DNA of 64,000 nt, from assembly GCA_964506945.1 (NCBI GenBank), contig CAZDOC010000003.1:65142-129141 (forward strand), in the 5' to 3' direction. The stretch's first letter is position 1. Each line of letters begins with the position of its first letter. Shown here in pieces: positions 18,931-64,000 of the stretch. Source of the stretch: an uncultured Gammaproteobacteria bacterium. Its GTDB lineage: Bacteria; Pseudomonadota; Gammaproteobacteria; CAZDOC01. Below the pieces are notes generated by a model that worked only from the letters and a program-made list of their open reading frames with translations, did no database searches and had not been told where the DNA came from. The position numbers were made by a program, and so were the translations under genes.

Positions 18931-20193
18931 CTATTCCACGCCGTCGATGACCAGATTACGCCATTCACTGGTGGCGATACCCACCCCGTTTTTGTCTATG
19001 GCGACAACACGCCAGCGCAAGGCATCCCCGGCATATCGCTGCAGCCAGGGCGGCGCCCTGTAGCTGGACCCGGTGGACTTGACGATCGCCGACAACACGG
19101 GCCCCTGGTCATTGACCAGCTCCAGCTTGTAGAAGGCCGTATCGGGGTGGTTGATCCAGGTGAATTCCAGTTTCGTGGGGAGGATCCGGGCATCGCTACC
19201 CGGCAGCATCAAGCCGATCCGGCCCCTGGCCACCGGGCGGTCCAAGGCTTCCTCCTCCGTTCCCACATAATAGCGGAGTACCGGCAGCGGGAAACCGGCC
19301 ACCCCTCCGCTGACCGCAACACCCGCCAGGGTGTTTGAATCGCCTTCCTTGTCGTCCGTGGCCTCTATGCGCAGCAGGACACGGTACAGGCCACCGCCGT
19401 CCGTGGTCGGCCTGATACGTCTGGGTCCCGGCAGATAATAGCGACCCGTCGGGGGCAGAAACACTTCGAACCGCTCCAGCAAGGTATATCGTTTTTGCGT
19501 GCCCCGCTGTTCCACGGGTAATGTCGCCTCGGTCAACAGATCGCGCGTACTGGGCTCCGCGTCACCGGGATAGACCAGTTCCCAGCGGCCCTTCAGACGC
19601 CCGCTACCGTTATAGCGGATATCGGCCCCGAAATCGGGCAACGGCTCGCCGGTTCCAACGGCCAGGATGGCCTTGTCCCCGCCCTTGGCCGCGAAGCTGA
19701 TCTTCACGTCGGTCAGGGCGAAGGGCACCCTGGCGCCTCCTCCCGCCATCCTGCAGGTCACGGTGACAAAGGTATCGACCCCACCATTGCGGAATTGCCG
19801 GACGTAGAAGAATTCCGACGAATTGCCCCGCAAGGCCTCCTGGAATGCCCGCCTGGTGACGGAATCGGGGATGGTCATGATGTCGGTGAAATTTTTCACT
19901 CCCCCGGTACCACTCACCGTGGACTGGTCGTTGCGCAGGGGCAGACTGCCGAAGATCGTTCCCGGAACACAGGGATTGAAGCCGAGCACGCCGGTTGCGG
20001 TGACATCGCCACACCAGAAGGCGGCAACGGCCCGTTCCCCCGCCGCCAGTCCCTGGAAGGTTATGAATACCGTCGTCGGGCCATGAGAACTGACATTGAC
20101 GCCGGTCGGGTTTCGACCGGTTATGGCGTCTGCCGCCGACGCCAGCAGCCACAGACAGACAATGAGTAAAGTGCGATATTTAGGTGCCATCAC
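18931..20193 (-). CDS. Hypothetical secreted protein (420 aa, cleavable signal peptide), translationally coupled to the upstream beta-barrel gene
   Basis: Long ORF with N-terminal signal (MAPKYRTLLIVCLWLLASAADA); only 11 nt separate it from the preceding stop; no family recognised. Confidence 0.6.
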   Translation of the reverse strand: MMAPKYRTLLIVCLWLLASAADAITGRNPTGVNVSSHGPTTVFITFQGLAAGERAVAAFWCGDVTATGVLGFNPCVPGTIFGSLPLRNDQSTVSGTGGVKNFTDIMTIPDSVTRRAFQEALRGNSSEFFYVRQFRNGGVDTFVTVTCRMAGGGARVPFALTDVKISFAAKGGDKAILAVGTGEPLPDFGADIRYNGSGRLKGRWELVYPGDAEPSTRDLLTEATLPVEQRGTQKRYTLLERFEVFLPPTGRYYLPGPRRIRPTTDGGGLYRVLLRIEATDDKEGDSNTLAGVAVSGGVAGFPLPVLRYYVGTEEEALDRPVARGRIGLMLPGSDARILPTKLEFTWINHPDTAFYKLELVNDQGPVLSAIVKSTGSSYRAPPWLQRYAGDALRWRVVAIDKNGVGIATSEWRNLVIDGVE

Positions 20194-20204
20194 AGGGTTC
20201 CGGA

Positions 20205-22508: not shown

Positions 22509-22627
22509 GAAGCATCCGGTCACCTCCACCGCCCCTGACCTCCCAATAAAACACTGGGCATTTCTGTGATATTCATTATGAAAGAGCGATATTCTCTTGA
22601 TTGTTCTTATATGGCAATGCCGGCAGA

Positions 22628-25600
22628 TCAATAGTTTCCAATGTCGAAAAACACGCGCCCGCCGCTCACAGGATAGACCGCCTTTATGCGCTTGGCGCCC
22701 GAGAAACGCACGATCGTGTTCAGCCCATCGATCAGGGCCGTCTCAATGGCCTGCTTGTCTATCCCGCCATTGACACCGGCGTTGATCTTGCCCAGCAGCC
22801 ATCCCTTTATCAGCGACAGGGGAATGTTGGAATTGGCCACATCGAGACTGAAATCACTGGCGAACTCCAGCCGTGTATCGCGTAGTGGCGTCAACTCGCC
22901 CTGCCGATTGACAAATGCATGGATGACGATCCTGAGTTCGGGCGATATCAGGTCCCCGGTGACCGCCCGGCCGAATGCCCTGCCCACGATCTCGTTGCCA
23001 CTGGTTTCGAAGGGGACCGTGATCGTGAACGTCAGCTGTTTCGTGCCACTGACCGTGGTCGACAGGGTCGGGCTGTTGGCGCTCATGTCGGCGATATCGA
23101 TATGCACCCGCCCCCCCAGACCATCATAGGGCGGAACCTCGAAAGTGGTGCTATCACCCAGCAGCGAGATGCTGCCGCTACCGATGGGAGCCCCTATGGT
23201 CGCGGTGAACTGGCTCAGCAGCCCATTCGCCCAGTCGGCATCCAGGACCCAGTAGGCGAACCGTGACATCTTGCGGGTAACGCCATTCACGCGGTAGTCG
23301 GCTCCGCCCAGCGTATCATGGACACTGATGTAGCCAGCTTCAAATCCAGTGTCCCTGAAATTGCTGACCTTGGCCTTGATGAGGTCGAATGTACCGGCCT
23401 GGCTGCGCTGCATTATCCTTGCCGCAACCCGGCCAACTTTCACTTCGGTGATACCGCTAAAGTTGTGTCCCTGCAGATAAAAAACACCATCGCTGCTGTC
23501 CGGATTCTGTAACAGGGCGGGATCGACGATGCCCTTGCCGTGGATCTTCTGTCCGCCAAGACCGGGCCGGTAGTCGTCTATCCACATGTCCGTGATCTCG
23601 GGCTCGGCGGGGAAGTCGCCTACGAACCGGAATGAAATGGAGAACACCAGCTTCCGTATCTCGCCCTGGGGTGTGGTGATTTCCAGATAGGGTAATGTCA
23701 TGGTGACTTGTCGATTGTTCTTCCATGCCTCAAGACGATCACGGCTGGGCTGGAGGACATAGGTCGCGCGCCGACCCGTATCATTCCTCACCGTGTCACT
23801 CAGGCCGCCCCATCGGTAGTGACTCCATCCCGGACTGGCGCAGGCATCCAACTCGATATTCCTTCCGGGTTCGTAGGTCACCATCAGGGGCTGCTGGAAC
23901 TGGATCCAGTAATCTCCATAGGGAGCCGGCGTTGCCGAGTCGAAATCGAGGGTTCTGGTTTCTCCGCCACAGGGGATCTCTATGGTCACGGAGTGCCGGT
24001 TTCTCGTCGCGGTGGCGGCAGCCTGCACCGCGCTGGCGACACTGGCACTGCTGGCGGTGGTCGATGATGTCGTACCACGCGCCTGGTGCTGCCTGCCGTT
24101 TGTCCTGCCAGCGGACGCCGCTGGACGCCGTGTATCCTTGACCTTAGCCTGCTGGGCGGGAACCCCGCCTGGCCGCCGTTCCTGCAACAGGGCAGTCGTC
24201 CCAGCCGCCGCAGGCGCCTTGCGCGACGGCGCCATGCCCCGCTTGCCGGCGGGAGCCGATGAGGACCCGGCCGCAGTAAGCGAGGTCCTGGAACCTGGGC
24301 CCTTCGCCCCCTGCCTGGACGTCTGCACAGGACCGTCCGCCGCCCGCAGCAAGCCCACCTGGATGGATTTCACCGGGCTCCGGACCCTGCCGGTATCCAG
24401 GGCAACGACGCTCAGCCCCTGGTCGCCGCCCTTCGAGGCAATCAGGTCCATGGTGAAGACTTCTCGCTTCCTGAACGGTGCCCTGGCCTTCAGCGTCCGG
24501 CGCTTGCCGGCATAACTGGCCGCAATGGCCACCACGCCGGCATCATCCGTGGCGGTGATGCTCGCCCGGAACTTCTGTCCCGGTTTTATCTTGGCGGGGA
24601 TGGAGATATTCGTCACCTGCGGGGGCTGATTGGCCCTGGCGCCCACGCCTCCGCGGCCTGACGCGGCGGCCCTGGCGGGGGTCCGGACGGGAGGCCGCGC
24701 AGCCGCGGCGGCGACCTGGGCTGCGGGCTTCGCCGGCCGCCTCCTGGTGGCCGCCTTGCCGCGTGGGGCCTTGGCCGCCACGACCGGTTTCACCTCCGCC
24801 GCCGCCGAGGCCCTGGCCGCCACCGTGGCGGTCCCCGCCGGGGCGTTGGCGGAGCTCCCCGCCCGTTGCCCCGCGGCGCGGCCCGGTCTGGCCGTCGCGG
24901 ACCGGCTCACCGGGGTGTTGACCGCCACCGGCCTGACCGTCTTCGCCTTGGCGGTACCGGAATTGGCCCTCGTGGTGGCCGCATTCACCCGGCTCACCCG
25001 CAGCGTCGCCGTGCCAACGGGCCGTTTGTTCCGGTCCCTCAAGATCAGCACATAGCGGCCTGGCGCTTCCTTCTTGTCCAGCCCCAGGGTCACCGTGCAC
25101 TGGCTCGCAGAGGGACAATTCAAACTGGGGTTGAAGCTGGCCACGGACCGGGGCCCCTGCATCACCACCACGCTGCTGGCCGCACCCAGAGCCTTGCCGG
25201 TGAGGCTCAGGGTCCGTTCGTTCCCCACCTGCAAGACCACCGAGGCCGGCGTCAGCTTCAGCGGTTGTGGCAGCTTGACCACTGGCCTCGGTGGCGTCTT
25301 CCCAGGTGTCCTTGCCGCCGTGTTGGTACTGGACCGCGTGGCCGCCACCCGGCTCACCGGGGCGACCGTGGGCGCCGGCGCGACGCGCCGACTCGCGGCC
25401 TGGCGGGACTTCGTCGCCACCGGGGCGGTGGTGATCTTCACTACCCGCAGGGCCGCGCTGGCCACCGGCAGCTTGCGGGCGGACTGCAGCATGACCACAT
25501 ACACGCCCCTGCGGATACCCGCCCTGGGCGTCAAGGTGACCTCACAGCGTGTCGCGCTGGGACAGTTCAATGCCATGCCGGCGTGCTGGCTGGGCTTGCC

Positions 25601-25792
25601 CCCCTGGTACAACACCACCCTGGCGGCCTGAGTCAGATCCTTGCCGCTCAGGGTCAAGCTCTGGACCCGGCCCACGCTCAGGCTCACCGACGCCGGTGTG
25701 ATCACCACGCGCTGCGCCGCCTGCACGCCCAGGCAGACGAACGATAGCAGCAACAGATACGGCAGTGTGTTTATCTTCCTGTTGGTCATCCT
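22628..25792 (-). CDS. Large secreted/surface protein with tandem Ig-like domains separated by basic Ala/Pro/Arg/Lys-rich linkers and an about 450-aa C-terminal globular domain
   Basis: Signal peptide MTNRKINTLPYLLLLSFVCLGVQAA. Two homologous about 90-aa modules (VVITPASVSLSVGRVQSLTLSGKDL... / LKLTPASVVLQVGNERTLSLTGKAL...) plus a third degenerate one; long low-complexity basic linkers. The track ORF extends to 25873. Confidence 0.65.
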   Translation of the reverse strand, partial: RMTNRKINTLPYLLLLSFVCLGVQAAQRVVITPASVSLSVGRVQSLTLSGKDLTQAARVVLYQGGKPSQHAGMALNCPSATRCEVTLTPRAGIRRGVYVVMLQSARKLPVASAALRVVKITTAPVATKSRQAASRRVAPAPTVAPVSRVAATRSSTNTAARTPGKTPPRPVVKLPQPLKLTPASVVLQVGNERTLSLTGKALGAASSVVVMQGPRSVASFNPSLNCPSASQCTVTLGLDKKEAPGRYVLILRDRNKRPVGTATLRVSRVNAATTRANSGTAKAKTVRPVAVNTPVSRSATARPGRAAGQRAGSSANAPAGTATVAARASAAAEVKPVVAAKAPRGKAATRRRPAKPAAQVAAAAARPPVRTPARAAASGRGGVGARANQPPQVTNISIPAKIKPGQKFRASITATDDAGVVAIAASYAGKRRTLKARAPFRKREVFTMDLIASKGGDQGLSVVALDTGRVRSPVKSIQVGLLRAADGPVQTSRQGAKGPGSRTSLTAAGSSSAPAGKRGMAPSRKAPAAAGTTALLQERRPGGVPAQQAKVKDTRRPAASAGRTNGRQHQARGTTSSTTASSASVASAVQAAATATRNRHSVTIEIPCGGETRTLDFDSATPAPYGDYWIQFQQPLMVTYEPGRNIELDACASPGWSHYRWGGLSDTVRNDTGRRATYVLQPSRDRLEAWKNNRQVTMTLPYLEITTPQGEIRKLVFSISFRFVGDFPAEPEITDMWIDDYRPGLGGQKIHGKGIVDPALLQNPDSSDGVFYLQGHNFSGITEVKVGRVAARIMQRSQAGTFDLIKAKVSNFRDTGFEAGYISVHDTLGGADYRVNGVTRKMSRFAYWVLDADWANGLLSQFTATIGAPIGSGSISLLGDSTTFEVPPYDGLGGRVHIDIADMSANSPTLSTTVSGTKQLTFTITVPFETSGNEIVGRAFGRAVTGDLISPELRIVIHAFVNRQGELTPLRDTRLEFASDFSLDVANSNIPLSLIKGWLLGKINAGVNGGIDKQAIETALIDGLNTIVRFSGAKRIKAVYPVSGGRVFFDIGNY
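25050..25770 (-). repeat. Diverged tandem intragenic DNA repeat encoding the two Ig-like modules
   Basis: Segments about 25080-25290 and 25530-25740 align at roughly 70% identity (e.g. gtcaccgtgcactggctcgcagagggacaattcaaactgg vs gtgacctcacagcgtgtcgcgctgggacagttcaatgcc). Confidence 0.6.
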
Positions 25793-25897
25793 CGCATTCA
25801 CTGGCGCTGAACTCCGTTGGGCAATACGGCCTAAGGTGAGGATAGGCAATCCACAACCGTCACGGTATCCCATGAATTGGGGGTGCCGGTCCGGCCC

Positions 25898-26617
25898 TCA
25901 GCGGAGGCGGTCAGCACAGATACCCCAGATCTCCCTGCGATAGACATGCAGCTGGTAGGCGATATCGCCAGTAGGCTCCTGATGCCACTTGATCTTTATT
26001 GGGCTGCATTGCAGGCAGCCCGGCTCGGGCCGGGACAGGATCCTGGCCAGGCCATAGCGCCCTTGCTGCAGCAGTTGCGCATGATCGAATATCAGGGCCC
26101 GGTGACGACATGCCGGCGGCGAATTGCCGACCTGATAGCTGTCCACCCCCTTGTCCCCGACCGACCTGCTGGAACTGCGCGCAAATACCAGCAGGTCCTT
26201 CACCGTACCCGCCGGGATCATCCGTGCTATCGACCTGCCAGGACGGATCACCGGCCTGATCGTATAGTGGCGGCTGTTGCTGCCACCCTTCTCGGCCACC
26301 ACCTGTACCTGCACCCGCAGGCCCTTGTTCAAATCCCTGATCCGGACCTGTATCCGGGTCTCCTCCCAGGATTCGATCTGGACGCTGTATTTCAGGCCGT
26401 GACCATAATCGGCGATGACCTCACAAGCTTGACAGCGCTGACCAAAATCATGGCCTGAAAGGGTGACCCGGTTCTCCTGGGCACCCTGGAGTGACAGTAT
26501 GGAGGGACTGGACTGCGCCCCGCAGATGAGCGGCATGAAGCAGCACAGGCCTGTGGGCAATAACAGATACCGTCTGCTGATCCTGCTATTGCCCCGGCAT
26601 GGTATCGCGACCTTCAT
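25898..26617 (-). CDS. Hypothetical small secreted protein with an Ig-like module related to the repeats of the large neighbour
   Basis: 239-aa ORF; hydrophobic N-terminus (YLLLPTGLCCFMPLICGA); ENRVTLSGHDFGQ resembles the TLSG/SLTG core of the neighbouring repeats. Confidence 0.5.
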   Translation of the reverse strand: MKVAIPCRGNSRISRRYLLLPTGLCCFMPLICGAQSSPSILSLQGAQENRVTLSGHDFGQRCQACEVIADYGHGLKYSVQIESWEETRIQVRIRDLNKGLRVQVQVVAEKGGSNSRHYTIRPVIRPGRSIARMIPAGTVKDLLVFARSSSRSVGDKGVDSYQVGNSPPACRHRALIFDHAQLLQQGRYGLARILSRPEPGCLQCSPIKIKWHQEPTGDIAYQLHVYRREIWGICADRLR

Positions 26618-26767: not shown

Positions 26768-28660
26768 TCAGGGGTCTGCCGTGGCGATGGGCAGCCAGAG
26801 ACTGACCCGGGTGCCGGAATCATCGGAAATCAGCTCGAAGAGGGCGCCGATCCGCTCCGCCCTGCGGCGCATATTGTCCAGGCCCCTGCCGCCGGATGCC
26901 GGTTCGCGCATGCCCCTGCCGTTGTCCTGAATCTCGACGATCACCCCAGGGAGGTCCCCGCTGTTCATCTCCCGGGTCAGGATCCTGATCTCGCTGGCTT
27001 TGGCGTGCTTGATGATATTGCTGATCGCCTCCTGCAGGATGCGCAATACCTGCAAGACCTTCTCTGGACCCAGCCCCGAGACCCTGGGGATATCGCTGAC
27101 ATGCCATCGCATCATGATGTTGCTTCGTTCGAGGCGTGGCTGGATCCGGGATCGGTACATGGCCAGCACGCTATTCAGATCATCCTCGACCGGGTCCAGG
27201 GAATCGATCATCACCCGCAGGTCATCGAGCGCGCCGTGCAGGGCATCGAGGATCTCTTCCCTGCTGGCATTACTGGTCTCGACCATCGACAGTGTCGAAA
27301 TGAGATGGCCACCCATACCATCGTGCATCTCCCGCATGATGCGCTCGCGTTCCATGATCAGCACCTGTTCCTTCTCCATCTGACGCAGGCGCTGGTAGTT
27401 GCGCTCCAGTTCCTGGTGCTTCTCCGCGACGCGCATGCCCAGCTCTATGTTGAGCCGCTCCGCTTCATCCAGGGCCTTCACAAAACGCGTCAGCAGGATC
27501 CAGCTGAAGATCAACAGCGGGACGGGCGCGGCATAATGCATCATCAGGCCATTCTCCCGGCTCACGAAGTCGTTCAGCATCAGCCAGTCATGAACGCCGA
27601 AGACTATCAGCAGGAGTCCGGACAGGAGCAGGAGATAGGCCCCCACATCGCGCTGCTTGCGGTACTCGTACATCAGCAACGATGCCGGATAGATCCCCAG
27701 CAGCAAGGACAGGGTATCGACGACACGATGACCCACGGTGGGCAACAGGCTTTCCGGCACCAGCAGCAGCGCGATCGCGCCGATCGTCCCGGCGATCACC
27801 AGGCCTCCCTCCAGAAGGTGACGTTCCACGCCGGTGAATCTGTGTACGAACAGGGTCACCAGGATCACGAACCAGGCCATGGTCGTGAACCACAACCATT
27901 CCCAGACATGGCTGGAGGTGGGTATATGGGTCACGAACAGGTTCAGGTTGTGGATGGCCCAGACGAAGAGCACCAGGGAGAACCAGCCGTAAACCGAATC
28001 CCGCCGGTGCAGATACCACAGCACGCCCATGAAAAAGCCCATGACCACCATGCTCCCGGTCAGGATCCGGGCGATCGTCACCTTGAGAAAATACCGCAGT
28101 TCATAGGCCGGCCGCAGCACTTCATCCGGCGCCAGATGCACCTTCCCCAGATAACCCGATCCGGGAGACAGCGCCGCGATCCTGATGACCACGATGTTTT
28201 CACCGGTATTCAACATGCCATTGGGGATCATGAAATACTGCGGGGTGTTCCAGTTCCGGGTCATCGGCGCGTCAAAGCGCCCGCCATCACCGAGCAGGTG
28301 TCCGTTCAGATAAACCGCCGTATTCATGTTGATCGTGGGCAGAAAGATCGCCCACAGGCGATTGGGCGACACGTTCAGGTCCAGGGCAAACCGGTACCAG
28401 GCATTGTGCGACTGGGTATCGGCATGCCGCCAGTCATCAGGAAGTACGCCAGGGCGCCAGCCGGCATTTCGTGAGGGGGGGGTGACGCCATCCTGATAGA
28501 GGACAGTCACCTCATCCATGGTCAGGATGTTGTCCGGCAGCCAGGATTGCGCCAGATAGCCGACTATCGACACGGTCGCCGGCAGGCCGAAGAATACCAG
28601 GCCTATGACCAGCATCCAGCTGCGCCTGGCGCTACCCGCCGAATTCGTACCGTCACTCAT
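26768..28660 (-). CDS. Sensor histidine kinase, 7TMR-DISM type (periplasmic 7TMR-DISMED2 domain, 7 TM helices, HisKA_3 and HATPase_c)
   Basis: 630 aa; N-terminal signal/TM, about 170-aa periplasmic domain, seven hydrophobic helices, then REMHDGMGGHLISTL (HisKA_3 H-box) and ILQEAISNIIKHAKAS...DNGRGM (ATPase N/G boxes). Confidence 0.85.
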   Translation of the reverse strand: MSDGTNSAGSARRSWMLVIGLVFFGLPATVSIVGYLAQSWLPDNILTMDEVTVLYQDGVTPPSRNAGWRPGVLPDDWRHADTQSHNAWYRFALDLNVSPNRLWAIFLPTINMNTAVYLNGHLLGDGGRFDAPMTRNWNTPQYFMIPNGMLNTGENIVVIRIAALSPGSGYLGKVHLAPDEVLRPAYELRYFLKVTIARILTGSMVVMGFFMGVLWYLHRRDSVYGWFSLVLFVWAIHNLNLFVTHIPTSSHVWEWLWFTTMAWFVILVTLFVHRFTGVERHLLEGGLVIAGTIGAIALLLVPESLLPTVGHRVVDTLSLLLGIYPASLLMYEYRKQRDVGAYLLLLSGLLLIVFGVHDWLMLNDFVSRENGLMMHYAAPVPLLIFSWILLTRFVKALDEAERLNIELGMRVAEKHQELERNYQRLRQMEKEQVLIMERERIMREMHDGMGGHLISTLSMVETSNASREEILDALHGALDDLRVMIDSLDPVEDDLNSVLAMYRSRIQPRLERSNIMMRWHVSDIPRVSGLGPEKVLQVLRILQEAISNIIKHAKASEIRILTREMNSGDLPGVIVEIQDNGRGMREPASGGRGLDNMRRRAERIGALFELISDDSGTRVSLWLPIATADP

Positions 28661-29318
28661 CGAGTCTGATGATCCCCAGTTGCATGGCCTCGAAAACCGC
28701 CTCTCCCCGGGATCTTACCGAAAGCTTTTTATAGATATTCTTGATATGCGAGGTCACGGTATGCCCTGACACGTCGATGATCCCGGCGATCTCGTTATAG
28801 CTGAAACCCTTGGCTACATAACGGAGGACCTCTGTCTCTCTTTCCGTCAAGTGGGGTGCGTCTGCGTTACCGCCCACTTCGCCGCGATGCTGTCCGCCCT
28901 GGAATCGTCGCAACAAATGTCGCGCGATCGACGGACTCATCGGCGAAGCCCCCCCCGCGAGTTCGATGATTGATGCGCCTATCGCATCCATGCTGCTGTC
29001 CTTCAGCAGATAACCCGATGCCCCGGCCTCGATGGCCGAGAGCACATGTCGTTCATCACCGAACACGGTGATGACCATGATCTCCGTATCGGGGTATTGC
29101 CTGACCGTCTCCTCGATGATCTCCACCCCTTCCCCATCCGGCAGTCCCAGGTCCGTGACCAGGATATCCGGGGCCTGCCGCGCCAGGACCTCCCGGGCGG
29201 CATGGCAGCTATCCACCGCGGCCAACAGGCTCAGGCCCCGATGTCCGGTGATGGCCTGGGCGAGCTTGTTGCGCGTATTGGTGTCATCCTCGACCAACAT
29301 CACGGAATACGGTGGCAT
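28653..29318 (-). CDS. NarL/LuxR-family response regulator (REC and HTH_LuxR)
   Basis: SVMLVEDDTNTR...DILVTDLGLPDG receiver and C-terminal LTERETEVLRYVAKGFSYNEIAG...TVTSHIKNIYKKL LuxR HTH; 8-nt overlap with the kinase gene; start at MPPYS preceded by AGGGG. Confidence 0.88.
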   Translation of the reverse strand: MPPYSVMLVEDDTNTRNKLAQAITGHRGLSLLAAVDSCHAAREVLARQAPDILVTDLGLPDGEGVEIIEETVRQYPDTEIMVITVFGDERHVLSAIEAGASGYLLKDSSMDAIGASIIELAGGASPMSPSIARHLLRRFQGGQHRGEVGGNADAPHLTERETEVLRYVAKGFSYNEIAGIIDVSGHTVTSHIKNIYKKLSVRSRGEAVFEAMQLGIIRLDE

Positions 29319-29370
29319 GGCGGTGCCCCTGCCCTTGTCAAGGAAACCCTGATTAATCCAGAGTTTCCGC

Positions 29371-29412
29371 GGCACATGGATGTGCCCTGATAATTCATGA
29401 ATGAATTATCAG
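29371..29412. promoter_or_regulatory. Two adjacent perfect palindromes upstream of the response-regulator gene (candidate operator)
   Basis: GGCACAT-GG-ATGTGCC (29371-29386) immediately followed by CTGATAATTCAT-GA-ATGAATTATCAG (29387-29412); AT-rich in a GC-rich genome. Confidence 0.45.
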
Positions 29413-54274: not shown

Positions 54275-54351
<77 letters not shown>

Positions 54352-54365
54352 CAGGACACACGCTG

Positions 54366-54917
54366 CTAGCGCGCCTGAAAGCCTCTGACCCAGTCCTCCT
54401 GGGCCCGGGTCTGGATCGCGCCGGAGCGGACCTTGCGCACGGCCTGGATGGCCTGCCCGGGCTGCAGGCCGGACTCCGTCAGCAGGCAGGCGGCCAGCAT
54501 CCCGGTGCGGCCCAGCCCCCCCAGGCAATGGATGACGATCGCCTCTCCCCGCGACAGGCGGGCGCGCAGGTCGGCGCCGCCGTCACGCCAGCGGCCGGTG
54601 AAGTCCGCACCGGGGATATCCATGTCCCGGATCGGCAGGTGCAGCCAGTCCAGACCCAGCCCCCGGGTCCGCTCCGGCAGATCGGCGACGCCGTATTCGC
54701 GCAGTTCGAAGGACTCCATCAGGGTCACCAGGATACCGGCGCCCCAGGCCCGGATGGCCTCCAGATCGGCCCCCAGGTCGCGCCGCCAGTCGGGGCTGGT
54801 GGCCAGCGGGTGATTGCGCCCCGGGCAGCAGCACATGCCGATGCGGCCACTGCCGCCGGGAACCTCCAGGCTGTCGATATGCAGTCTTTTCACCGTCCTC
54901 CGCCAGGCCAGGGTCAT
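54366..54917 (-). CDS. Cys-X5-Arg protein tyrosine/dual-specificity phosphatase-like protein
   Basis: About 184 aa with VIHCLGGLGRTG P-loop (HCxxGxxRT) and an upstream Asp candidate (DMDIPGADF). Confidence 0.7.
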   Translation of the reverse strand: MTLAWRRTVKRLHIDSLEVPGGSGRIGMCCCPGRNHPLATSPDWRRDLGADLEAIRAWGAGILVTLMESFELREYGVADLPERTRGLGLDWLHLPIRDMDIPGADFTGRWRDGGADLRARLSRGEAIVIHCLGGLGRTGMLAACLLTESGLQPGQAIQAVRKVRSGAIQTRAQEDWVRGFQAR

Positions 54918-55017
54918 GGCCCCATGATGGCACAAACAGCCGGCGCCAGACACCATCGGAATCCATCGCGCCCGCGGCCCGATTTCAGGCTATGCTTCGA
55001 ATACAGGGGGACGCAAG

Positions 55018-55857
55018 ATGACGAAACAATACCTGGTCTTCACCGATCTCGACAGCACCCTGCTGGATCACGATGATTACGGCTATGAACCGGTACGGCC
55101 GCTGGTGCGCGAACTGGAACAAGGCGGTATCCCGCTGATCTTCAACAGCAGCAAGACCCAGGTGGAGAGCCTGCACCTGCGCGAGGAACTGGACAACCGC
55201 CATCCCTTCATCTTCGAGAACGGCGGCGGCCTGGCCATACCGGAGGCTTACTTCGATCACATCATGCCCGAATTGGCCCCGGAGGCCGGTTACCTGCTGC
55301 AACTGTTCGGCGCGGACTACGGCTCCATCCGCCGCATCCTGCTGGACCTGCGCGAGGAGAAGGGCTACCCGTTCCGGGGCCTGGGGGACATGGATGAAGC
55401 CGAGATAGGCCGGCACACCCGCCTGTCCGGGGCCGCGGCGGAACGCGCCTGGCTGCGACGCAGTTCCGAACCGCTCATCTGGCAGGGTGATCCGGAGCGC
55501 CTGCATGCCTTCTCCCACGACCTGCGCGAACACGGCCTGAAACTGGTCAGGGGGGGCCGCTTCCTGCACGTGATGGGTCGCACCGACAAGGGCCGGGCGA
55601 TGAAATGGCTGCTGGCCCAGTACCGGCAGCGTTTCCAAAAGCCCCTGCACGTCATCGCCCTGGGGGACAGTGACAACGATCGGCCGATGCTGGAGCTGGC
55701 GGAGACGGCCATCGTCATCCCGCACCGCGATGGCAGCCACCTGGAGATGGAACACCCCGACCTGATCACGGCCGATACCCCGGCCCCACGGGGCTGGGTA
55801 CGGGGGCTGGCACAGGTCCTGCGGCGGATCGGCAAAGGAGACATCGTTCATGAGTGA
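55018..55857 (+). CDS. HAD-IIB phosphatase, mannosyl-/glucosyl-3-phosphoglycerate phosphatase family (MpgP/GpgP/YedP-like)
   Basis: N-terminal FTDLDSTLL HAD motif I, SSKT motif II, GDSDND motif IV; 8-nt overlap (ATGAGTGA) with the following glycosyltransferase gene. Confidence 0.75.
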   Translation: MTKQYLVFTDLDSTLLDHDDYGYEPVRPLVRELEQGGIPLIFNSSKTQVESLHLREELDNRHPFIFENGGGLAIPEAYFDHIMPELAPEAGYLLQLFGADYGSIRRILLDLREEKGYPFRGLGDMDEAEIGRHTRLSGAAAERAWLRRSSEPLIWQGDPERLHAFSHDLREHGLKLVRGGRFLHVMGRTDKGRAMKWLLAQYRQRFQKPLHVIALGDSDNDRPMLELAETAIVIPHRDGSHLEMEHPDLITADTPAPRGWVRGLAQVLRRIGKGDIVHE

Positions 55858-57067
55858 CTTCTTCCAGAACGGCATCATCACCACCCTGCACAATCTCACC
55901 GATCGCCCCATCGCCGAGCTCGAGCGGGAGCTGACCGGCTTTGCCCGCCAGCGACCGATGTCGCTGGTCCTGCCCTGCCTGTTCGCGGAGATCGGCACCC
56001 CGGCGCTGGAGTTGATCGTTTCCGAACTGGCCCGGGTCCCCTATCTCGACGAGATCATCATCGGCCTGGACCGCGCCGACGAGGCGCAATTCCAGCAGGC
56101 CAAGGAATACTTCTCCCGCCTGCCCCAGCACCACCGTATCCTCTGGAACGACGGCCCGCGCCTGACCGGCCTGGACCAGGCCCTGATGGACCAGAACCTG
56201 GCCCCGATGGAGATGGGCAAGGGCCGCAACGTCTGGTACTGCTTCGGTTATGTGCTGGCCTCGGGGCGTGGCAAGGCGGTGGCCCTGCACGACTGTGACA
56301 TCACCACCTATGACCGTTCCCTGCTGGCGCGCCTGATCTATCCCATCGCCAACCCCAAGTTCCATTATGAATTCTGCAAGGGCTATTACGCCCGCTATTC
56401 CACCACCACCCTGAACGGCCGCGTCACCCGCCTGCTGGTGACGCCATTGATCCGCACCCTGAAGAGGGTCCTGGGATCGGTCAAGTACCTGGATTACCTG
56501 GACAGTTTCCGTTATCCCCTGGCGGGGGAGTTCTCCATGCGCGCGGATGTCCTGCTGGACATCCGCATCCCCAGTGACTGGGGCCTGGAGATCGGCGTGC
56601 TGTCCGAGGTCTATCGCAACTACTCCACCAACCGCCTGTGCCAGGTGGATATCTCGGATCACTATGATCACAAGCACCAGGAGCTGTCCGCGGATGATTT
56701 CGAGACCGGCCTGGCGAAGATGAGTACCGACATCAGCAAGGCCATATTCCGCAAGCTGGCCACCAAGGGTCACATCTTCTCCGCGGGCACCTTCCGCAGC
56801 ATCAAGGCCACCTATTTCCGGATCGCCCTGGATTTCATCAAGACCTATTACGACGATGCCGCCATCAATGGCCTGATCCTGGATCGCCATGCCGAGGAAA
56901 AGGCGGTGGAACTGTTTTCACGCTCCATCATGCGCGCCGGCGAGAGCTTCCTGGACAACCCGATGGAGACCCCCTTCATCCCCAGCTGGAACCGCATCAT
57001 CAGCGCCAAGCCGGACTTTATAGAACGGCTCTACGATGCCGTGGAAAAGGATTATGCCGATTGCTGA
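55850..57067 (+). CDS. Glucosyl-/mannosyl-3-phosphoglycerate synthase-like retaining glycosyltransferase
   Basis: 405-aa cytoplasmic protein translationally coupled to the MpgP-family phosphatase; GT-A-like DxD candidate (LHDCDITTYD). Family assignment by context, not verified. Confidence 0.55.
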   Translation: MSDFFQNGIITTLHNLTDRPIAELERELTGFARQRPMSLVLPCLFAEIGTPALELIVSELARVPYLDEIIIGLDRADEAQFQQAKEYFSRLPQHHRILWNDGPRLTGLDQALMDQNLAPMEMGKGRNVWYCFGYVLASGRGKAVALHDCDITTYDRSLLARLIYPIANPKFHYEFCKGYYARYSTTTLNGRVTRLLVTPLIRTLKRVLGSVKYLDYLDSFRYPLAGEFSMRADVLLDIRIPSDWGLEIGVLSEVYRNYSTNRLCQVDISDHYDHKHQELSADDFETGLAKMSTDISKAIFRKLATKGHIFSAGTFRSIKATYFRIALDFIKTYYDDAAINGLILDRHAEEKAVELFSRSIMRAGESFLDNPMETPFIPSWNRIISAKPDFIERLYDAVEKDYADC

Positions 57068-58803
57068 TCGGCGCGCATGTCCAGCCACAGACACTGGTAA
57101 GGACCCAGCGTGACCTGCCCCAGGGCAACGCCCTGATCCGTGATCAGGTCATGCCAGGCGGCCTCCCGCAGCCTCGCTTCCAGGCCTTCCCGGGGCACGC
57201 CCTGGGGATAGGGAGTGACATTGCTGATCGCGAGCAGGGTCTGGCTGTCATCGACGGCATGACGCAGTACCGCGAACAGGGCATCATCCAGGACGACGAT
57301 GTCCTGGATGGCATCCGGGTGCAGGGCCGGCTGCGCCCGCCGCAGGCGCATCAGCCGGCTCAGTTCACTGAAAACCTGGGCATTCACGCTGGCTGGGTTG
57401 TCCAGCTTTTCCTGCAAATCCTCGTAGCACCATCGGTGCCGGTTGATGGTGCGGGTGCGGTCCGTGCGCTCGACCGCTTCCAGGTCATTCGGCGTGGCCG
57501 TAAGGGAGTGGATATAGACCGCCGGGATGCCCCTCAGCACCAGCATCATGGCCTGGGAGCAGAGGAAGCGCTGCAACTGCCATTCATCCGCCCCCAGGCG
57601 GGTACCCATCATGGCGTCGAAATAGGAGATATTGATCTCGTAGGGGCTGTCGCTGCCATCACCGTTGGACTTCATGCTGGCGAAGCCGCCGAAGCGGCGC
57701 ATGCAATCGATCAGGTCGTGGATCTCGTCCGCGGGGATGATCTGCTCCACCGCGCGGACACCGATGCCATCGTGCGAGGCGGTGAAATTGAGGAAACTGC
57801 AGCCCGGTGGCGGGGGCTCCAGAGCCGCTGCCCACTGGCTCAGATAGTGGGCGTTGCCGCGATTCAGGGCGTGCAGGATCAAGGGTGGCAGGGCGAACTG
57901 GTAGACCATGTGCGCCTCGTCACCGTCACCGAAATAACTGATGTTCTCGCGGTGCGGCACGTTGGTCTCGGTGAGCAGTACCACGGCCGGCGCGGCGATG
58001 CGCAGCACATCGTTCAGCAGCTTGATGATCTCGTGGGTCTGAGGCAGGTGGATGCAGGGGCTGCCGATGGTCTTCCACAGGTAGGCGATCGCATCCAGGC
58101 GGATGAAACGCGCCCCGGCCCGGACATAGAACAGCAGGATATCGACGAATTCCATCAATACCCGGGGATTGTGAAAGTTCAGGTCTATCTGGTCCTTGCT
58201 GAAGGTCGCCCAGACATGCCGTGTGCCCCGGTGCGTGGGTACCTCCACCAGCAGGGAACTGTTGCGGGGACGCACCACGGCCGAGAGATCGGTATCGGGA
58301 TCGACCTCGATGAAATAATCGCAATAGGGCTCATTGTTGTTGATGAAATCCAGAAACCACAGGCTCTGCCTGGAGATGTGATTGATCACCAGGTCGATCA
58401 TCAGGTCGAACTCCGTACCCAGCGCGGCAATATCATCCCAGTCCCCGAGATCATGCTTGACCTCACGGAAATTGATCACCGAAAAACCGTCATCCGAGCT
58501 ATAGGGAAAGAAGGGCAGGATATGCACGGCGCTGATGGTGCCGTGCAGGTAGTGGTGCAACATCCGGCGCAGGGTCCGCAGGGGCAGTTCGCCCTCCCTG
58601 AGGATGCTGTCGGCATAGGTGATCAGCAGCACGTCCTGCTCGCTCCAGCGCACGCGCGGCCGCGGCGGCATCTGCTCCATGTGGGCATGCATCAGCATCA
58701 GCAACTGATCCAGGAGATGCGCGCCGGCATCGGGATAGATGTGTTCCAGATGCCGTTGCAGCTCGGCGATGTCAGCCGCGTCGATTACACAGGTTTCCGT
58801 CAT
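57052..58803 (-). CDS. GH13_18 sucrose-phosphorylase-family enzyme (glucosylglycerate/glucosylglycerol phosphorylase-like)
   Basis: LLITYADSI...[23 protein letters not shown]...[12 protein letters not shown] collinear with sucrose phosphorylase catalytic core (RLDA nucleophile region); convergent and overlapping 3' end with the synthase gene. Confidence 0.8.
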
Positions 58804-58956
58804 CCGCTTGCGTCGCCTTCAGGGAGAGGCAATGGCCCGATGGACTATCATGCCACGCCCGGGCGGGGGACTGAAACAGAAGGGCATGGACGCGGGCCCG
58901 CCCGGCAGGTGGAGACGGGTCGGGAACACCCGGCCCCACGGGGCCGGGTCACTCAC

Positions 58957-60397
58957 TCAGCGCGGCAGATCGCTGCGTCCCATCAGGTACTCATCCACCG
59001 CCCGGGCGCACTGGCGGCCCTCGCGGATGGCCCAGACCACCAGCGACTGGCCACGGCGCATGTCGCCGGCGCTGAAGACCCGCTCGATGGAGGTGTAGTA
59101 GGCCCGCTCGCCCTCGGTCTCGCCCTTGACGTTGCCGCGGCCGTCCAGCTCCGTCCCGAGTTCCTCGATCATGCCCTGGTGTACCGGGTGCAGGAAGCCC
59201 ATGGCCAGGGTCGCCAGTTCGGCCTTGATCTCGAATTCGGAGCCCGGCACCTCCGACATCCGCCACTGGTGATTTTCGTCCTGCTCCCAGGCCACCTTGA
59301 TGCACCGCAGCCCGGCCAGCCGGCCCTGGCCGTCGTCGATGAATTCCTTGGTGGCGACCGACCACATCCGCTCACAGCCCTCTTCCTGGGAACTGGAGGT
59401 GCGCATCTTGTTGGGCCAGTGCGGCCAGGTGCTCAGCTTGTCTTCCCGGGCCGGCGGCTGGGGCAGGATCTCTATCTGGGTCACGGAACGCGCGCCCTGG
59501 CGTATGGAGGTGCCGATGCAGTCCGAACCGGTGTCGCCGCCGCCGATCACGACCACGTTCCTGCCTTCTGCGGAGATGAAATTCTCGACCTCGTCTCCCT
59601 GCACCCGGTGGCTGTTGCTGCGCAGGAAGTCCATCGCGAAATGCACCCCGTCCAGGTCCCGGCCCGGCACCGGCAGGTCGCGCGGCTGTTCCGCGCCGCC
59701 GGTCAGGACCACGGCATCGTACTCATCCAGCAAACGGGCCGCGGGCAGGTCGACGCCGATATGGACATTGACCCGGAACTCCACGCCCTCGGTCAGCATC
59801 TGCGCCATGCGCCGGTCGATGACCTTCTTGTCCAGCTTGAAGTCGGGGATGCCATAGCGCAGCAGCCCGCCGATGCGGTTCTGTTTCTCGAACAGGGTCA
59901 CCGCATGCCCGGCCCGGGCCAGCTGCTGGGCACAGGCCATGCCGGCCGGCCCCGAGCCCACCACGGCCACCCGCTTGCCGGTCTTGTGCGCGGGGATCTG
60001 CGGCTTGATCCAGCCTTCTTCCCAGCCCTTTTCGATAATGCTGTACTCGATGGTCTTGATGGTGACCGGCGCATCATCCAGGTTCAGGGTACAGGCCGCC
60101 TCGCAGGGGGCGGGGCAGATGCGGCCGGTGAATTCCGGGAAATTGTTGGTCGAATGCAGGACCTCCAGGGCCGCCAGCCAGTCTCCCTGATAGACCAGAT
60201 CGTTCCAGTCCGGGATGATGTTGTTGACCGGGCAGCCCTCGTGGCAGAAGGGGATGCCACAATCCATGCAGCGCGCGCCCTGCTGGCTCAGGGCCTTTTC
60301 ACTGAGCGGGATGACGAACTCGGCAAAATTGTCCACCCGGTCGGCGACCGGCAGACAGGCCCGGTCCTGACGCTGGAATTCCATGAAACCCGTAGGC

Positions 60398-60405
<8 letters not shown>
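58957..60405 (-). CDS. gltD: Glutamate synthase (NADPH) small subunit
   Basis: 482 aa; Fe-S cysteine clusters ([19 protein letters not shown]), FAD/NAD Rossmann [12 protein letters not shown]. Confidence 0.93.

Positions 60406-64000
<3,595 letters not shown>

What the first reader, a model, noticed from the sequence alone, without database searches (positions are those of the whole stretch)
54366..58803. Compatible-solute module downstream of rpoD-tRNA: MpgP/GpgP phosphatase overlapping a 3-phosphoglycerate glycosyl-synthase, convergent with a GH13_18 phosphorylase, flanked by a Cys-X5-Arg phosphatase
Synthesis genes (a two-step synthase/phosphatase pathway known for glucosylglycerate and mannosylglycerate) and a sucrose-phosphorylase-family enzyme of the subfamily that contains glucosylglycerate and glucosylglycerol phosphorylases sit tail-to-tail with 16-bp overlap. 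This implies a make-and-recycle cycle for a glyceryl glycoside. The solute identity (glucosyl- vs mannosyl-glycerate vs glucosylglycerol) cannot be decided from sequence alone. The module is inserted at a tRNA between rpoD and gltDB
Basis: partly seen in the sequence, partly recalled or inferred. Interest (0 to 1): 0.55.

Follow-up and report, generated by a model that had tools for sequence, protein, structure and literature searches.

The report
Glucosylglycerate synthesis-and-recycling gene cluster
This is an ordinary, already-described type of gene cluster for making the osmoprotectant glucosylglycerate (GpgS + GpgP) and breaking it down again with a dedicated phosphorylase (GGaP), here in an uncultured gammaproteobacterium; it was not inserted at the neighbouring tRNA.

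Summary
The window holds a CX5R phosphatase-like gene (54366-54956, -), an MPGP-family HAD phosphatase (55018-55857, +) overlapping by 8 bp a GT81 glycosyltransferase (55850-57067, +), and a convergent GH13_18 enzyme (57052-58803, -) with a 16-bp 3' overlap. The module lies between rpoD-tRNA-Met and gltDB.

- The GT matches the glucosyl-3-phosphoglycerate synthase model over its full length (E 7e-110). It hits only GT81 structures, not GT55 or GT78.
- The GH13 enzyme carries both published signatures of strict glucosylglycerate phosphorylases (TETN; Glu in loop A). It is 41% identical over its full length to characterised E. coli YcjM and groups with it, away from sucrose and glucosylglycerol phosphorylases.

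In 80 species-representative genomes, gpgP sits directly before gpgS in 78 and a GGaP lies within 10 kb in 74. This association is what led to the discovery of GGaP (Franceus 2017), so the module is a new member of a known kind.

The "inserted at a tRNA" reading is not supported. Islands that use this tRNA in relatives land between the tRNA and the module. The CX5R phosphatase and gltDB adjacency occur only in the closest relatives.

The parts
54275..54351 (+). tRNA-Met (CAT). It is context only. In relatives it serves as an integration site for genomic islands.
   Evidence: ARAGORN and Rfam RF00005 at 74.5 bits. Relative L003 keeps only the 3' 45 nt, followed by AT-rich DNA carrying AbiEi/AbiEii. 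L087, from the same sample, has rpoD-tRNA-Met-integrase.
54366..54956 (-). Cys-X5-Arg (HCLGGLGR) dual-specificity/PTP-like phosphatase of unknown role. It is a neighbour and not a demonstrated part of the module. The start is probably Met14, giving 183 aa as called in the 98% relative.
   Evidence: Pfam PF22785 Tc-R-P at E 1e-11, plus PTP-SAK and CDKN3. No NCBIfam or PADLOC hit. Found next to gpgP only in the close relatives L003, L004 and L086 and in 0 of 80 other gpgS loci.
55018..55857 (+). gpgP: HAD-IIB phosphatase of the mannosyl-/glucosyl-3-phosphoglycerate phosphatase family. Predicted reaction: glucosyl-3-phosphoglycerate -> glucosylglycerate + Pi.
   Evidence: TIGR01486 at 226.2 bits (cutoff 164.75), full length. 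Best solved relative is E. coli YedP (1XVI), E 1.9e-40, then archaeal and Thermus MpgP. HAD motif I is DLDSTLL at residues 10-16. A homologue lies directly upstream of gpgS on the same strand in 78 of 80 genomes.
55850..57067 (+). gpgS: long-form (about 400 aa) GT81 glucosyl-3-phosphoglycerate synthase. Predicted reaction: NDP-glucose + 3-phosphoglycerate -> glucosyl-3-phosphoglycerate.
   Evidence: NF040724 GpgS at E 7e-110 and 367.6 bits, covering residues 3-403 of 405. Solved-structure hits are only GT81 GpgS and the dual MpgS; the family profile gives E 1e-18 to 7e-15, GT78 scores 0.15 and GT55 is absent. The DXD motif (D148-C-D150), GKG, GRVT and PLAGE motifs are conserved across the family. 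Homologues in marine Gammaproteobacteria are 65-75% identical, and JGI names them GpgS.
57052..58803 (-). GGaP: GH13_18 glucosylglycerate phosphorylase. Predicted reaction: glucosylglycerate + Pi <-> alpha-glucose 1-phosphate + D-glycerate.
   Evidence: 41% identity over 564 aa to E. coli YcjM, against 207 bits or less for any solved sucrose or glucosylglycerol phosphorylase. TETN motif at 278-281 and loop A PYEIN at 388-392, the GGaP signatures of PMC7178133. Catalytic D237, E279 and D345 are present. The NJ tree places it with YcjM.
58804..58956 (-). 153-bp spacer between gltD and GGaP. It holds a G+C-rich hairpin directly after the gltD stop. The transcriptional link between gltBD and GGaP is unresolved.
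   Evidence: Sequence and alignment with three relatives. The fold is no more stable than shuffled sequence, z = -0.21, and no consensus terminator or promoter was found.
58957..60405 (-). gltD (glutamate synthase small subunit); context only.
   Evidence: TIGR01317 at 710 bits. Adjacent to GGaP only in the close relatives.
60398..64000 (-). gltB (glutamate synthase large subunit), cut by the end of the window; context only.
   Evidence: ORF. The orthologue in L086 carries GATase_2, Glu_syn_central, Glu_synthase and GXGXG domains.

Best explanation
The three core genes encode the known glucosylglycerate (GG) pathway plus its phosphorolytic sink.
1. GpgS, a retaining GT-A glycosyltransferase of family GT81, transfers glucose from an NDP-glucose to 3-phosphoglycerate.
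2. GpgP, an MPGP-family HAD phosphatase translationally coupled to gpgS through an 8-bp overlap, removes the phosphate to give the anionic compatible solute 2-O-alpha-glucosylglycerate.
3. The convergently transcribed GH13_18 enzyme is a strict glucosylglycerate phosphorylase (GGaP). It splits GG with phosphate into glucose 1-phosphate and D-glycerate, so both halves re-enter central metabolism or the pathway itself.

Gene identities, motifs and the conservation of gene order are shown here. Enzyme activities, the sugar donor, the in vivo direction of GGaP and the regulation are inferred from characterised homologues. By analogy with other GG producers, GG would accumulate under salt stress, especially when nitrogen is limiting, and would be recycled when no longer needed.

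The cluster is part of the conserved chromosome of this uncultured gammaproteobacterial lineage and is not a tRNA-borne island. The glycerate 3-kinase that accompanies the operon in most relatives is not encoded in this window.
For: GT:
- Full-length match to the GpgS model NF040724 (E 7e-110). This is stronger than the score of a representative of the picocyanobacterial clade (271 bits); GpgS enzymes of two cyanobacteria have been characterised.
- The family profile hits only GT81 GpgS and the dual MpgS structures (E 1e-18 to 7e-15). GT78 scores 0.15 and GT55 is absent.

Phosphatase:
- Above the curated cutoff of the MPGP family.

GH13 enzyme:
- 41% identical over its full length to characterised E. 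coli YcjM.
- Carries the TETN and loop-A Glu signatures that the GH13_18 review gives for strict GGaPs. It lacks the VGAIYQ motif of glucosylglycerol phosphorylase and the LPE(I/V)H motif seen in the solved sucrose and glucosylglycerol phosphorylases.
- Groups with YcjM in the NJ tree.

Context in 80 species-representative genomes:
- gpgP lies directly upstream of gpgS in 78.
- GGaP lies directly downstream on the same strand in 65, convergent in 7, and elsewhere within 10 kb in 2.
- A GLYK-type glycerate 3-kinase (PDB 7XPC, 6CKG) lies upstream in 61.
- A natural GpgS-GGaP fusion protein exists in Myxococcota.

Literature:
- GGaP specificity was originally deduced from exactly this gene neighbourhood (PMC7178133; PMC11009771).
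- A 'glucosylglycerate metabolism operon' with synthesis and recycling genes is described in Prochlorococcus.
Against: - No enzyme was assayed and no solute was measured.
- The GT scores below the NF040724 equivalog cutoff (368 against 700 bits). That model is tuned to Methanococcoides-type sequences.
- I could not obtain the characterised M. burtonii, P. marina or cyanobacterial GpgS sequences for a formal tree.
- MPGP-family phosphatases do not by themselves discriminate glucosyl- from mannosyl-3-phosphoglycerate.
- No glycerate kinase, phosphoglucomutase or NDP-glucose pyrophosphorylase is encoded in the window, so the 'cycle' is closed only by genes assumed to lie elsewhere.
- The physiological role of GGaP is untested in any organism.
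Confidence: 0.85

Rival explanations
1. The synthase/phosphatase pair makes mannosylglycerate (MpgS/MpgP) rather than glucosylglycerate.
For: The phosphatase's named matches are all 'mannosyl-3-phosphoglycerate phosphatase' models. The GT81 enzyme of Rubrobacter (3F1Y) is a dual MpgS/GpgS and is among the structural hits.
Against: - The GT matches GpgS over its full length at E 7e-110, but matches the Rubrobacter enzyme only over about 190 residues and more weakly than mycobacterial GpgS.
- Classical MpgS (GT55) and MGS (GT78) are not hit.
- The partner phosphorylase has the signatures of a strict glucosylglycerate enzyme.
- All phosphatase scores are far below the MpgP equivalog cutoffs (224 against 353 or more).
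Confidence: 0.04
2. The GH13_18 enzyme is a sucrose, sucrose-6F-phosphate or glucosylglycerol phosphorylase, so the locus handles a different glucoside.
For: The best NCBIfam name is 'sucrose phosphorylase' (TIGR03852, 230 bits), many database entries are so named, and the top solved structures are sucrose phosphorylases.
Against: - TIGR03852 is below its cutoff (230 against 334).
- Identity and coverage are much higher to the characterised GGaP YcjM: 450 bits over the full length, against 207 bits or less for the solved enzymes.
- TETN and PYE are present, while the loop-A Gln seen in the solved sucrose and glucosylglycerol phosphorylases and the VGAIYQ motif of glucosylglycerol phosphorylase are absent.
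- The tree separates it from the sucrose phosphorylase entry 7QQJ, the related unnamed entry 7QQI, and the glucosylglycerol phosphorylase 7XDQ.
Confidence: 0.03
3. The module is a horizontally acquired island integrated at tRNA-Met between rpoD and gltDB.
For: - It starts 15 bp after a tRNA that is demonstrably an integration hot spot in relatives.
- G+C dips to 0.60-0.61 around 56000-58500, against about 0.65-0.69 nearby.
- A more distant relative (RpoD 72%) has unrelated genes after rpoD.
Against: - There is no second copy of the tRNA 3' end anywhere in the window, and no integrase or mobility gene between the tRNA and gltD.
- GC3 of the four genes (0.81-0.88) lies inside the window's range and equals that of rpoD and gltD; rpoD itself has G+C of 0.60-0.62.
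- The block PTP-gpgP-gpgS-GGaP-gltD-gltB is collinear at 83-85% nucleotide identity in relatives.
- In those relatives the integrated island, with its 45-nt att repeat, lies on the tRNA side of the PTP gene, outside the module.
Confidence: 0.08
4. Glucosylglycerate is not the end product here but a precursor, for example of mannosylglucosylglycerate as in Petrotoga and Rhodopirellula, or of a glucan primer as in mycobacterial MGLP. Alternatively, GGaP works in the synthetic direction.
For: GpgS feeds such pathways in other phyla (PMC2674218 listed). The GGaP reaction is reversible.
Against: - No mggA/mggS-like or further glycosyltransferase gene lies in the cluster, either here or in the 80 related loci, where the recurrent partners are only GLYK, gpgP and GGaP.
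- A glycerate 3-kinase partner fits recycling of glycerate rather than elongation.
Confidence: 0.05

Closest known systems
Glucosylglycerate phosphorylase (GGaP, EC 2.4.1.352; GH13_18). Characterised in Meiothermus silvanus, Spirochaeta thermophila and E. coli YcjM (Franceus 2017 and Mukherjee 2018, as cited in PMC7178133).
   Same: - Full-length homology: 41% identity to YcjM over 564 aa.
- TETN motif and loop-A Glu, and the catalytic Asp/Glu/Asp.
- Length of about 560-585 aa.
- Neighbourhood of gpgS and gpgP, the very feature from which the specificity was first deduced.
   Different: - In E. coli the gene heads a catabolic sugar-uptake operon (ycjM-V) without gpgS/gpgP.
- Here it is convergent with, and overlaps by 16 bp, the synthase gene, and it sits downstream of gltBD.
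- It belongs to a subclade (51-60% identity) whose members are typically convergent. The majority subclade (42-56% identity) lies co-directionally in the operon.
Two-step GpgS/GpgP pathway of Methanococcoides burtonii, Persephonella marina and marine picocyanobacteria (Costa 2006 and 2007, Klaehn 2010, as cited in PMC3736172 and PMC11009771).
   Same: - A long-form GT81 synthase of about 400 aa next to an MpgP-like HAD-IIB phosphatase.
- Full-length match to the M. burtonii-based model.
- About 50% identity to the picocyanobacterial clade.
   Different: - Gene order here is phosphatase first, with an 8-bp translational-coupling overlap.
- The host is an uncultured high-G+C gammaproteobacterium whose RpoD is at most 73% identical to any sequence outside its own small lineage (four sequences at 86-100% including its own), and none of the closer ones is named.
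- The sugar-donor preference (ADP-, GDP- or UDP-glucose differs among characterised enzymes) cannot be read from the sequence.
GLYK-gpgP-gpgS-GGaP operon of marine Gammaproteobacteria (Marinobacter, Alteromonas, Glaciecola, Thalassolituus and others), and the 'glucosylglycerate metabolism operon' of Prochlorococcus (PMC11631117).
   Same: The same three core genes. GpgS is 65-75% identical.
   Different: - The window lacks the glycerate 3-kinase gene.
- GGaP is on the opposite strand.
- The flanks are a CX5R phosphatase gene and gltDB, instead of for example the eda-edd-pgl-zwf genes of Thalassolituus.
Mycobacterial GpgS (Rv1208, GT81; PDB 4Y6N, 7P5L).
   Same: GT-A core with DXD, GKG, GRVT and PLxGE motifs alignable over about 180 residues.
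   Different: - The mycobacterial enzyme is a short form of about 325 aa.
- Its partner phosphatase belongs to a different family: a typical GpgP was missing in mycobacteria and Rv2419c fills that role (PMC3240985, listed).
- GG there primes MGLP and is degraded by a hydrolase rather than a phosphorylase.

Membership tests
GH13_18 strict glucosylglycerate phosphorylase (GGaP) | [quoted passage not shown] | tested here: met
   LLTETNVPH, residues 276-284. It is identical in type to YcjM (ITETNVPH), whereas the solved sucrose and glucosylglycerol phosphorylases have LPE(I/V)H.
GH13_18 strict glucosylglycerate phosphorylase (GGaP) | Conserved Glu in loop A where other clades have Gln (PMC7178133) | tested here: met
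   SPYEINISY at residues 386-394, against IYQIN and IYQVN in the two entries 7QQJ (sucrose phosphorylase) and 7QQI (unnamed Aamy-domain protein), and VGAIYQ in the glucosylglycerol phosphorylase.
GH13_18 strict glucosylglycerate phosphorylase (GGaP) | GH13 catalytic nucleophile Asp, acid/base Glu and transition-state Asp | tested here: met
   RLD237A, TE279TN and HD345G align with the corresponding motifs of the solved GH13_18 enzymes.
GH13_18 strict glucosylglycerate phosphorylase (GGaP) | Closer to a characterised GGaP than to sucrose, sucrose-6F-phosphate or glucosylglycerol phosphorylases | tested here: met
   450 bits and 41% identity over the full length to YcjM, against 207, 188 and 155 bits to the best solved sucrose, glucosylglycerol and sucrose-6F-phosphate phosphorylases. 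The NJ tree groups it with YcjM. The M. silvanus and S. thermophila enzymes were not available for comparison.
GH13_18 strict glucosylglycerate phosphorylase (GGaP) | Phosphorolysis of 2-O-alpha-glucosylglycerate and no activity on sucrose | not testable with these tools
   Needs a recombinant enzyme assay.
Glucosyl-3-phosphoglycerate synthase (GT81, long form) | Full-length homology to characterised GpgS | tested here: met
   NF040724 at E 7e-110, covering residues 3-403 of the protein and positions 2-400 of 402 in the model.
Glucosyl-3-phosphoglycerate synthase (GT81, long form) | Reaches the NCBIfam equivalog cutoff of NF040724 (700 bits) | tested here: not met
   367.6 bits. The model is specific to Methanococcoides-type sequences: eight diverse family representatives, including the picocyanobacterial clade, score 178-303 bits. 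The protein is therefore not a member of that narrow equivalog; this does not bear on the wider family.
Glucosyl-3-phosphoglycerate synthase (GT81, long form) | GT81 rather than GT55 (MpgS) or GT78 (MGS) | tested here: met
   The family profile hits mycobacterial GpgS at E 1e-18 to 5e-16 and the GT81 Rubrobacter MpgS/GpgS at 7e-15. GT78 MGS scores E 0.15 and no GT55 entry is hit.
Glucosyl-3-phosphoglycerate synthase (GT81, long form) | GT-A DXD metal site and the GKG, GRVT, PLxGE and His motifs that line the donor and 3-phosphoglycerate sites in mycobacterial GpgS (the roles of these motifs are recalled from the structural literature, not re-derived here) | tested here: met
   D148-C-D150, G123-K-G125, G190-R-V-T193, P223-L-A-G-E227 and H274/H276 align with the mycobacterial enzyme. 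They are invariant or at least 90% conserved in 57 family members.
Glucosyl-3-phosphoglycerate synthase (GT81, long form) | NDP-glucose donor and 3-phosphoglycerate acceptor | not testable with these tools
   Needs an enzyme assay; donor preference varies among characterised GpgS enzymes.
HAD-IIB mannosyl-/glucosyl-3-phosphoglycerate phosphatase family (TIGR01486) | Score above the curated family cutoff, and HAD motif I | tested here: met
   226.2 bits against a cutoff of 164.75, covering residues 6-267. The motif is FTDLDSTLL, with D10 and D12.
HAD-IIB mannosyl-/glucosyl-3-phosphoglycerate phosphatase family (TIGR01486) | Preference for glucosyl- over mannosyl-3-phosphoglycerate | not testable with these tools
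   It can only be inferred from the conserved pairing with gpgS, 78 of 80 genomes.
tRNA-integrated genomic island | Direct repeat of the tRNA 3' end at the distal border | tested here: not met
   The 32-nt 3' end of the tRNA occurs once in the window at up to 3 mismatches.
tRNA-integrated genomic island | Integrase or other mobility genes, and deviant composition | tested here: not met
   No such gene lies between 54352 and 58956. GC3 is 0.81-0.88, within the window's range of 0.70-0.88.
tRNA-integrated genomic island | Presence or absence polymorphism among close relatives, with the att site at the border | tested here: not met
   The module is present in all three close relatives. The real island in L087/L003 is bounded by the tRNA and a 45-nt repeat that lies before the PTP gene.

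The most novel reading that the evidence does not exclude
In this lineage the layout may act as a reciprocal switch between the two anionic osmolytes, glutamate and glucosylglycerate. GGaP lies 153 bp downstream of gltBD on the same strand, and its 3' end overlaps gpgS by 16 bp. Read-through from the glutamate synthase operon would raise GGaP expression. By convergent transcription into gpgS-gpgP, with no room for a terminator, it would also lower GG synthesis. GG would then be dismantled exactly when nitrogen assimilation into glutamate resumes. The evidence does not exclude this, but nothing tested here supports it beyond the geometry. The gltD-GGaP spacer shows no significant structure or consensus signals, and the arrangement is confined to a few close relatives.
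Probability: 0.08. Interest if true: 0.45.

Novelty: new member of a known kind. Interest (0 to 1): 0.2.

Why it matters
Mainly as annotation.
- The three genes can be named gpgP, gpgS and glucosylglycerate phosphorylase. At present they are labelled 'HAD hydrolase', 'glycosyl transferase' and 'sucrose phosphorylase/alpha-amylase'.
- This predicts that the uncultured gammaproteobacterium uses glucosylglycerate as an osmolyte, typically one favoured under nitrogen limitation.

The survey also shows how widespread the GLYK-gpgP-gpgS-GGaP cluster is in marine Gammaproteobacteria. This is relevant to glucosylglycerate turnover in the ocean.

The in vivo role of GGaP is still an acknowledged open point (PMC7178133). 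This locus does not make that question more testable than cultured carriers such as Marinobacter or Alteromonas already do.

Tried and rejected
- Reading the primary papers (Franceus 2017, PMC5601347; Costa 2006 and 2007, PMC1347341 and PMC1855766): none is held, so reviews were used instead.
- Exact look-up of the window's own GT and GH13 proteins in the contig index: not on record. RpoD is at most 73% identical to anything outside a small uncultured lineage.
It was repeated with 12 closer sequences. This returned only Gammaproteobacteria-like relatives at 65% identity or more, so the characterised archaeal, Aquificae and cyanobacterial GpgS sequences could not be fetched for a formal tree. 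Model-score bracketing was used instead.
- Promoter and terminator scan of the module: counts were no higher than in shuffled sequence. The fold of the gltD-GGaP spacer was not better than shuffles. A TGGCAT element conserved upstream of GGaP was considered as a sigma-54 -24 box and rejected, because no -12 GC element sits at the right spacing.
- Rfam scan: no riboswitch or regulatory RNA near the module.
- A GLYK-like kinase, RIO-like kinase and fatty-acid hydroxylase found in the Thalassolituus cluster were searched for in the window: absent.
- The CX5R phosphatase as part of a defence or toxin system: no PADLOC hit. As a pathway member: rejected for lack of co-occurrence.

Full report
**Observation.**
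- A 196-aa ORF at 54366-54956 (-) carries HCLGGLGR, a Cys-X5-Arg motif. It matches DSP/PTP-type Pfam families (Tc-R-P at E 1e-11, PTP-SAK, CDKN3).
- A 279-aa HAD-IIB phosphatase lies at 55018-55857 (+), a 405-aa glycosyltransferase at 55850-57067 (+), and a 583-aa GH13 protein at 57052-58803 (-).
- The phosphatase/GT junction reads AAAGGAGacatcgttcATGAGTGA. The genes overlap by 8 bp, and a Shine-Dalgarno sequence precedes the GT start.
- The stop codons of the GT (57065-57067) and the GH13 gene (complement of 57052-57054) give a 16-bp tail-to-tail overlap. Three relatives show the same overlap.
- dnaG, rpoD and tRNA-Met(CAT, 54275-54351) lie upstream. gltD and gltB lie downstream on the minus strand.

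**The glycosyltransferase.**
- Pfam has no model for it. NCBIfam NF040724 (glucosyl-3-phosphoglycerate synthase, built on Methanococcoides) matches residues 3-403 at E 7e-110 and 367.6 bits.
- This is below the 700-bit equivalog cutoff. That cutoff is narrow: eight diverse full-length family members score only 178-303 bits. They include P0244, a representative of the picocyanobacterial clade (its cluster contains a Cyanobium sequence and JGI 'GpgS' names). GpgS enzymes of two cyanobacteria have been characterised.
- Among solved structures the single sequence hits only GT81 enzymes.
- A profile of 57 family members hits mycobacterial GpgS at E 1e-18 to 5e-16 and the dual-specificity Rubrobacter MpgS/GpgS at 7e-15. 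GT78 mannosylglycerate synthase scores an insignificant 0.15, and GT55 MpgS is not hit.
- The DXD motif (D148-C-D150) and the GKG, GRVT, PLAGE and His motifs align with mycobacterial GpgS. They are invariant or nearly so across the family.
Within that group the evidence favours GpgS.

**The phosphatase.** It exceeds the curated cutoff of TIGR01486, the mannosyl-3-phosphoglycerate phosphatase family (226 against 165 bits). Its best solved relatives are E. coli YedP and the archaeal and Thermus MpgPs. This family does not by itself distinguish the glucosyl from the mannosyl substrate. That inference rests on its partner.

**The GH13 enzyme.**
- Its best solved relatives are GH13_18 members, at 207 bits or less and covering only the catalytic domain.
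- E. coli YcjM is annotated and characterised as a glucosylglycerate phosphorylase. It aligns over 564 residues at 41% identity and 450 bits.
- The GH13_18 review (PMC7178133) gives two sequence signatures that separate strict GGaPs from the other specificities. One is a (T/S)ETN motif holding the acid/base Glu. The other is a Glu in loop A where other clades have Gln.
- The window protein has LLTETNVPH (276-284) and SPYEINISY (386-394). The solved sucrose phosphorylase 7QQJ and the related unnamed entry 7QQI have LPEIH and IYQ(I/V)N. The glucosylglycerol phosphorylase has LPEVH and VGAIYQ.
- The catalytic residues D237, E279 and D345 are in place.
- In a neighbour-joining tree the protein groups with YcjM and the operon-encoded homologues of Marinobacter, Alteromonas and others. 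It is clearly separated from the sucrose phosphorylase 7QQJ, the related entry 7QQI, and the glucosylglycerol phosphorylase 7XDQ.
- The second refutation condition is thus not met either.

**Conservation of the neighbourhood.** The GT family is very common: 1898 representatives at 50% clustering. I examined the 80 best loci, which come from Marinobacter, Alteromonas, Glaciecola, Thalassolituus, Amphritea, Zooshikella, Halieaceae, Methylotuvimicrobium and others.
- gpgP lies directly upstream on the same strand in 78.
- A GGaP-type gene lies directly downstream on the same strand in 65, convergent in 7, and elsewhere within 10 kb in 2.
- Of the six loci without a GGaP, two are on short contigs.
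- In 61 a P-loop kinase precedes gpgP. It is homologous to solved D-glycerate 3-kinases (7XPC at E 4e-24, 6CKG, 1ODF). It would return the glycerate released by GGaP to 3-phosphoglycerate.
- The window has the minority convergent layout. Its GGaP belongs to the subclade that goes with that layout (51-60% identity, against 42-56% for the co-directional ones).
- No GLYK-like gene is present in the 64 kb.
- A 991-aa Myxococcota protein, present in two assemblies, fuses GpgS to a TETN/PYE-type GGaP. This fusion is independent evidence that the two activities belong together.

**What is already known.** The reviews state that putative sucrose phosphorylase homologues tend to lie near GG genes. [quoted passage not shown] A 'glucosylglycerate metabolism operon' with de novo synthesis and recycling branches is used in Prochlorococcus transcriptomics. 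The make-and-recycle reading is therefore correct but not new. The in vivo purpose of GGaP is still described as unverified.

**The tRNA-insertion idea.**
- The 3' end of the tRNA occurs only once in the window. There is no integrase or other mobility gene in the module.
- GC3 of the four genes (0.81-0.88) matches that of rpoD and gltD (0.88) and lies within the window's range. The modest G+C dip is no larger than that of rpoD itself.
- Relatives L003 and L004 are collinear with the window from gltB to position 54307/54306 at 83-85% nucleotide identity. That is, they match through the module, the CX5R gene and the last 45 nt of the tRNA.
- At that point L003 switches to AT-rich DNA encoding AbiEi/AbiEii, and no intact tRNA is present.
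- A second contig from the same sample, L087, carries rpoD (91% identical), an intact tRNA-Met and a phage-type integrase.
- Together these describe an island integrated into tRNA-Met whose distal att repeat lies before the CX5R gene. The tRNA is a hot spot, but the GG module sits outside the island on the conserved backbone.
- A relative with 98% identical RpoD has the window's arrangement exactly. One at 72% has unrelated genes after rpoD, so deeper history cannot be resolved.

**The flanking genes.** The CX5R phosphatase and gltDB are neighbours only in this small lineage, 0 of 80 other loci. Nothing ties the phosphatase to the pathway. The gltBD adjacency is suggestive because GG replaces glutamate as counter-anion under nitrogen limitation. 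However, the 153-bp spacer has no significant structure or consensus signals. I list a reciprocal-switch idea only as the low-probability novel case.

**Verdict.** The functional interpretation is supported and sharpened to glucosylglycerate. The insertion claim and the implied relevance of the CX5R phosphatase are not supported. This is a new member of a known kind of cluster in an uncultured gammaproteobacterium, and its interest is low.

Noticed in passing
L003:8768-11754 and L087:11905-13093 (relatives of window 54275-54366): In a relative from sample ERZ27249683, a low-G+C island is integrated into the tRNA-Met that precedes the module. One end carries a phage-type integrase. The other end carries AbiEi/AbiEii toxin-antitoxin genes and is bounded by a 45-nt repeat of the tRNA 3' end. 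L004 breaks at the same nucleotide. The window itself has an empty site.
   Followed up: partly
P0241 / P0392 (Myxococcota MAGs; not in the window): A 991-aa natural fusion of GpgS (residues 1-401, 61% identical to the window's GT) with a GH13_18 domain carrying the GGaP signatures TETN and PYEIN. It is seen in two independent assemblies. A synthase fused to the phosphorylase of its own pathway's end product is odd and may bear on how the two activities are coordinated.
   Followed up: partly
L001:6234-7190 and 61 of 80 related loci (absent from the window): A GLYK-type D-glycerate 3-kinase gene (homologous to PDB 7XPC, 6CKG and 1ODF) is the usual first gene of the gpgP-gpgS-GGaP operon in marine Gammaproteobacteria. 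NCBIfam recognises it only weakly, as a nucleoside/uridine kinase-like protein. In Thalassolituus the convergent GGaP heads an eda-edd-pgl-zwf (Entner-Doudoroff) gene string.
   Followed up: partly
window 18931-26617 (- strand): Four consecutive long ORFs (420, 808, 1081 and 239 aa; GC3 0.74-0.78) have no match in Pfam, NCBIfam or PADLOC. They lie directly downstream of a 7TMR-DISM histidine kinase (26768-28660) and a LuxR-type response regulator (28653-29375).
   Followed up: no
window 58900-58956 (- strand, just after the gltD stop): A G+C-rich hairpin (ACCCGGCCCC-GU-GGGGCCGGGU) follows gltD, and a hairpin-like element recurs at that position in relatives. A TGGCAT(G/C)AT element about 50 nt upstream of the GGaP start is invariant in four relatives despite otherwise variable spacer sequence. 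Neither matches the consensus terminator or promoter scans.
   Followed up: partly
window 13958-14340 (-): A bacterial RNase P RNA (class A, 326 bits) lies between a dcw/mur-like gene block and rsmI. The rest of the window is housekeeping: petABC, hisC, hisD, murA, mlaFEDC and rpsU-yqeY-dnaG-rpoD.
   Followed up: no
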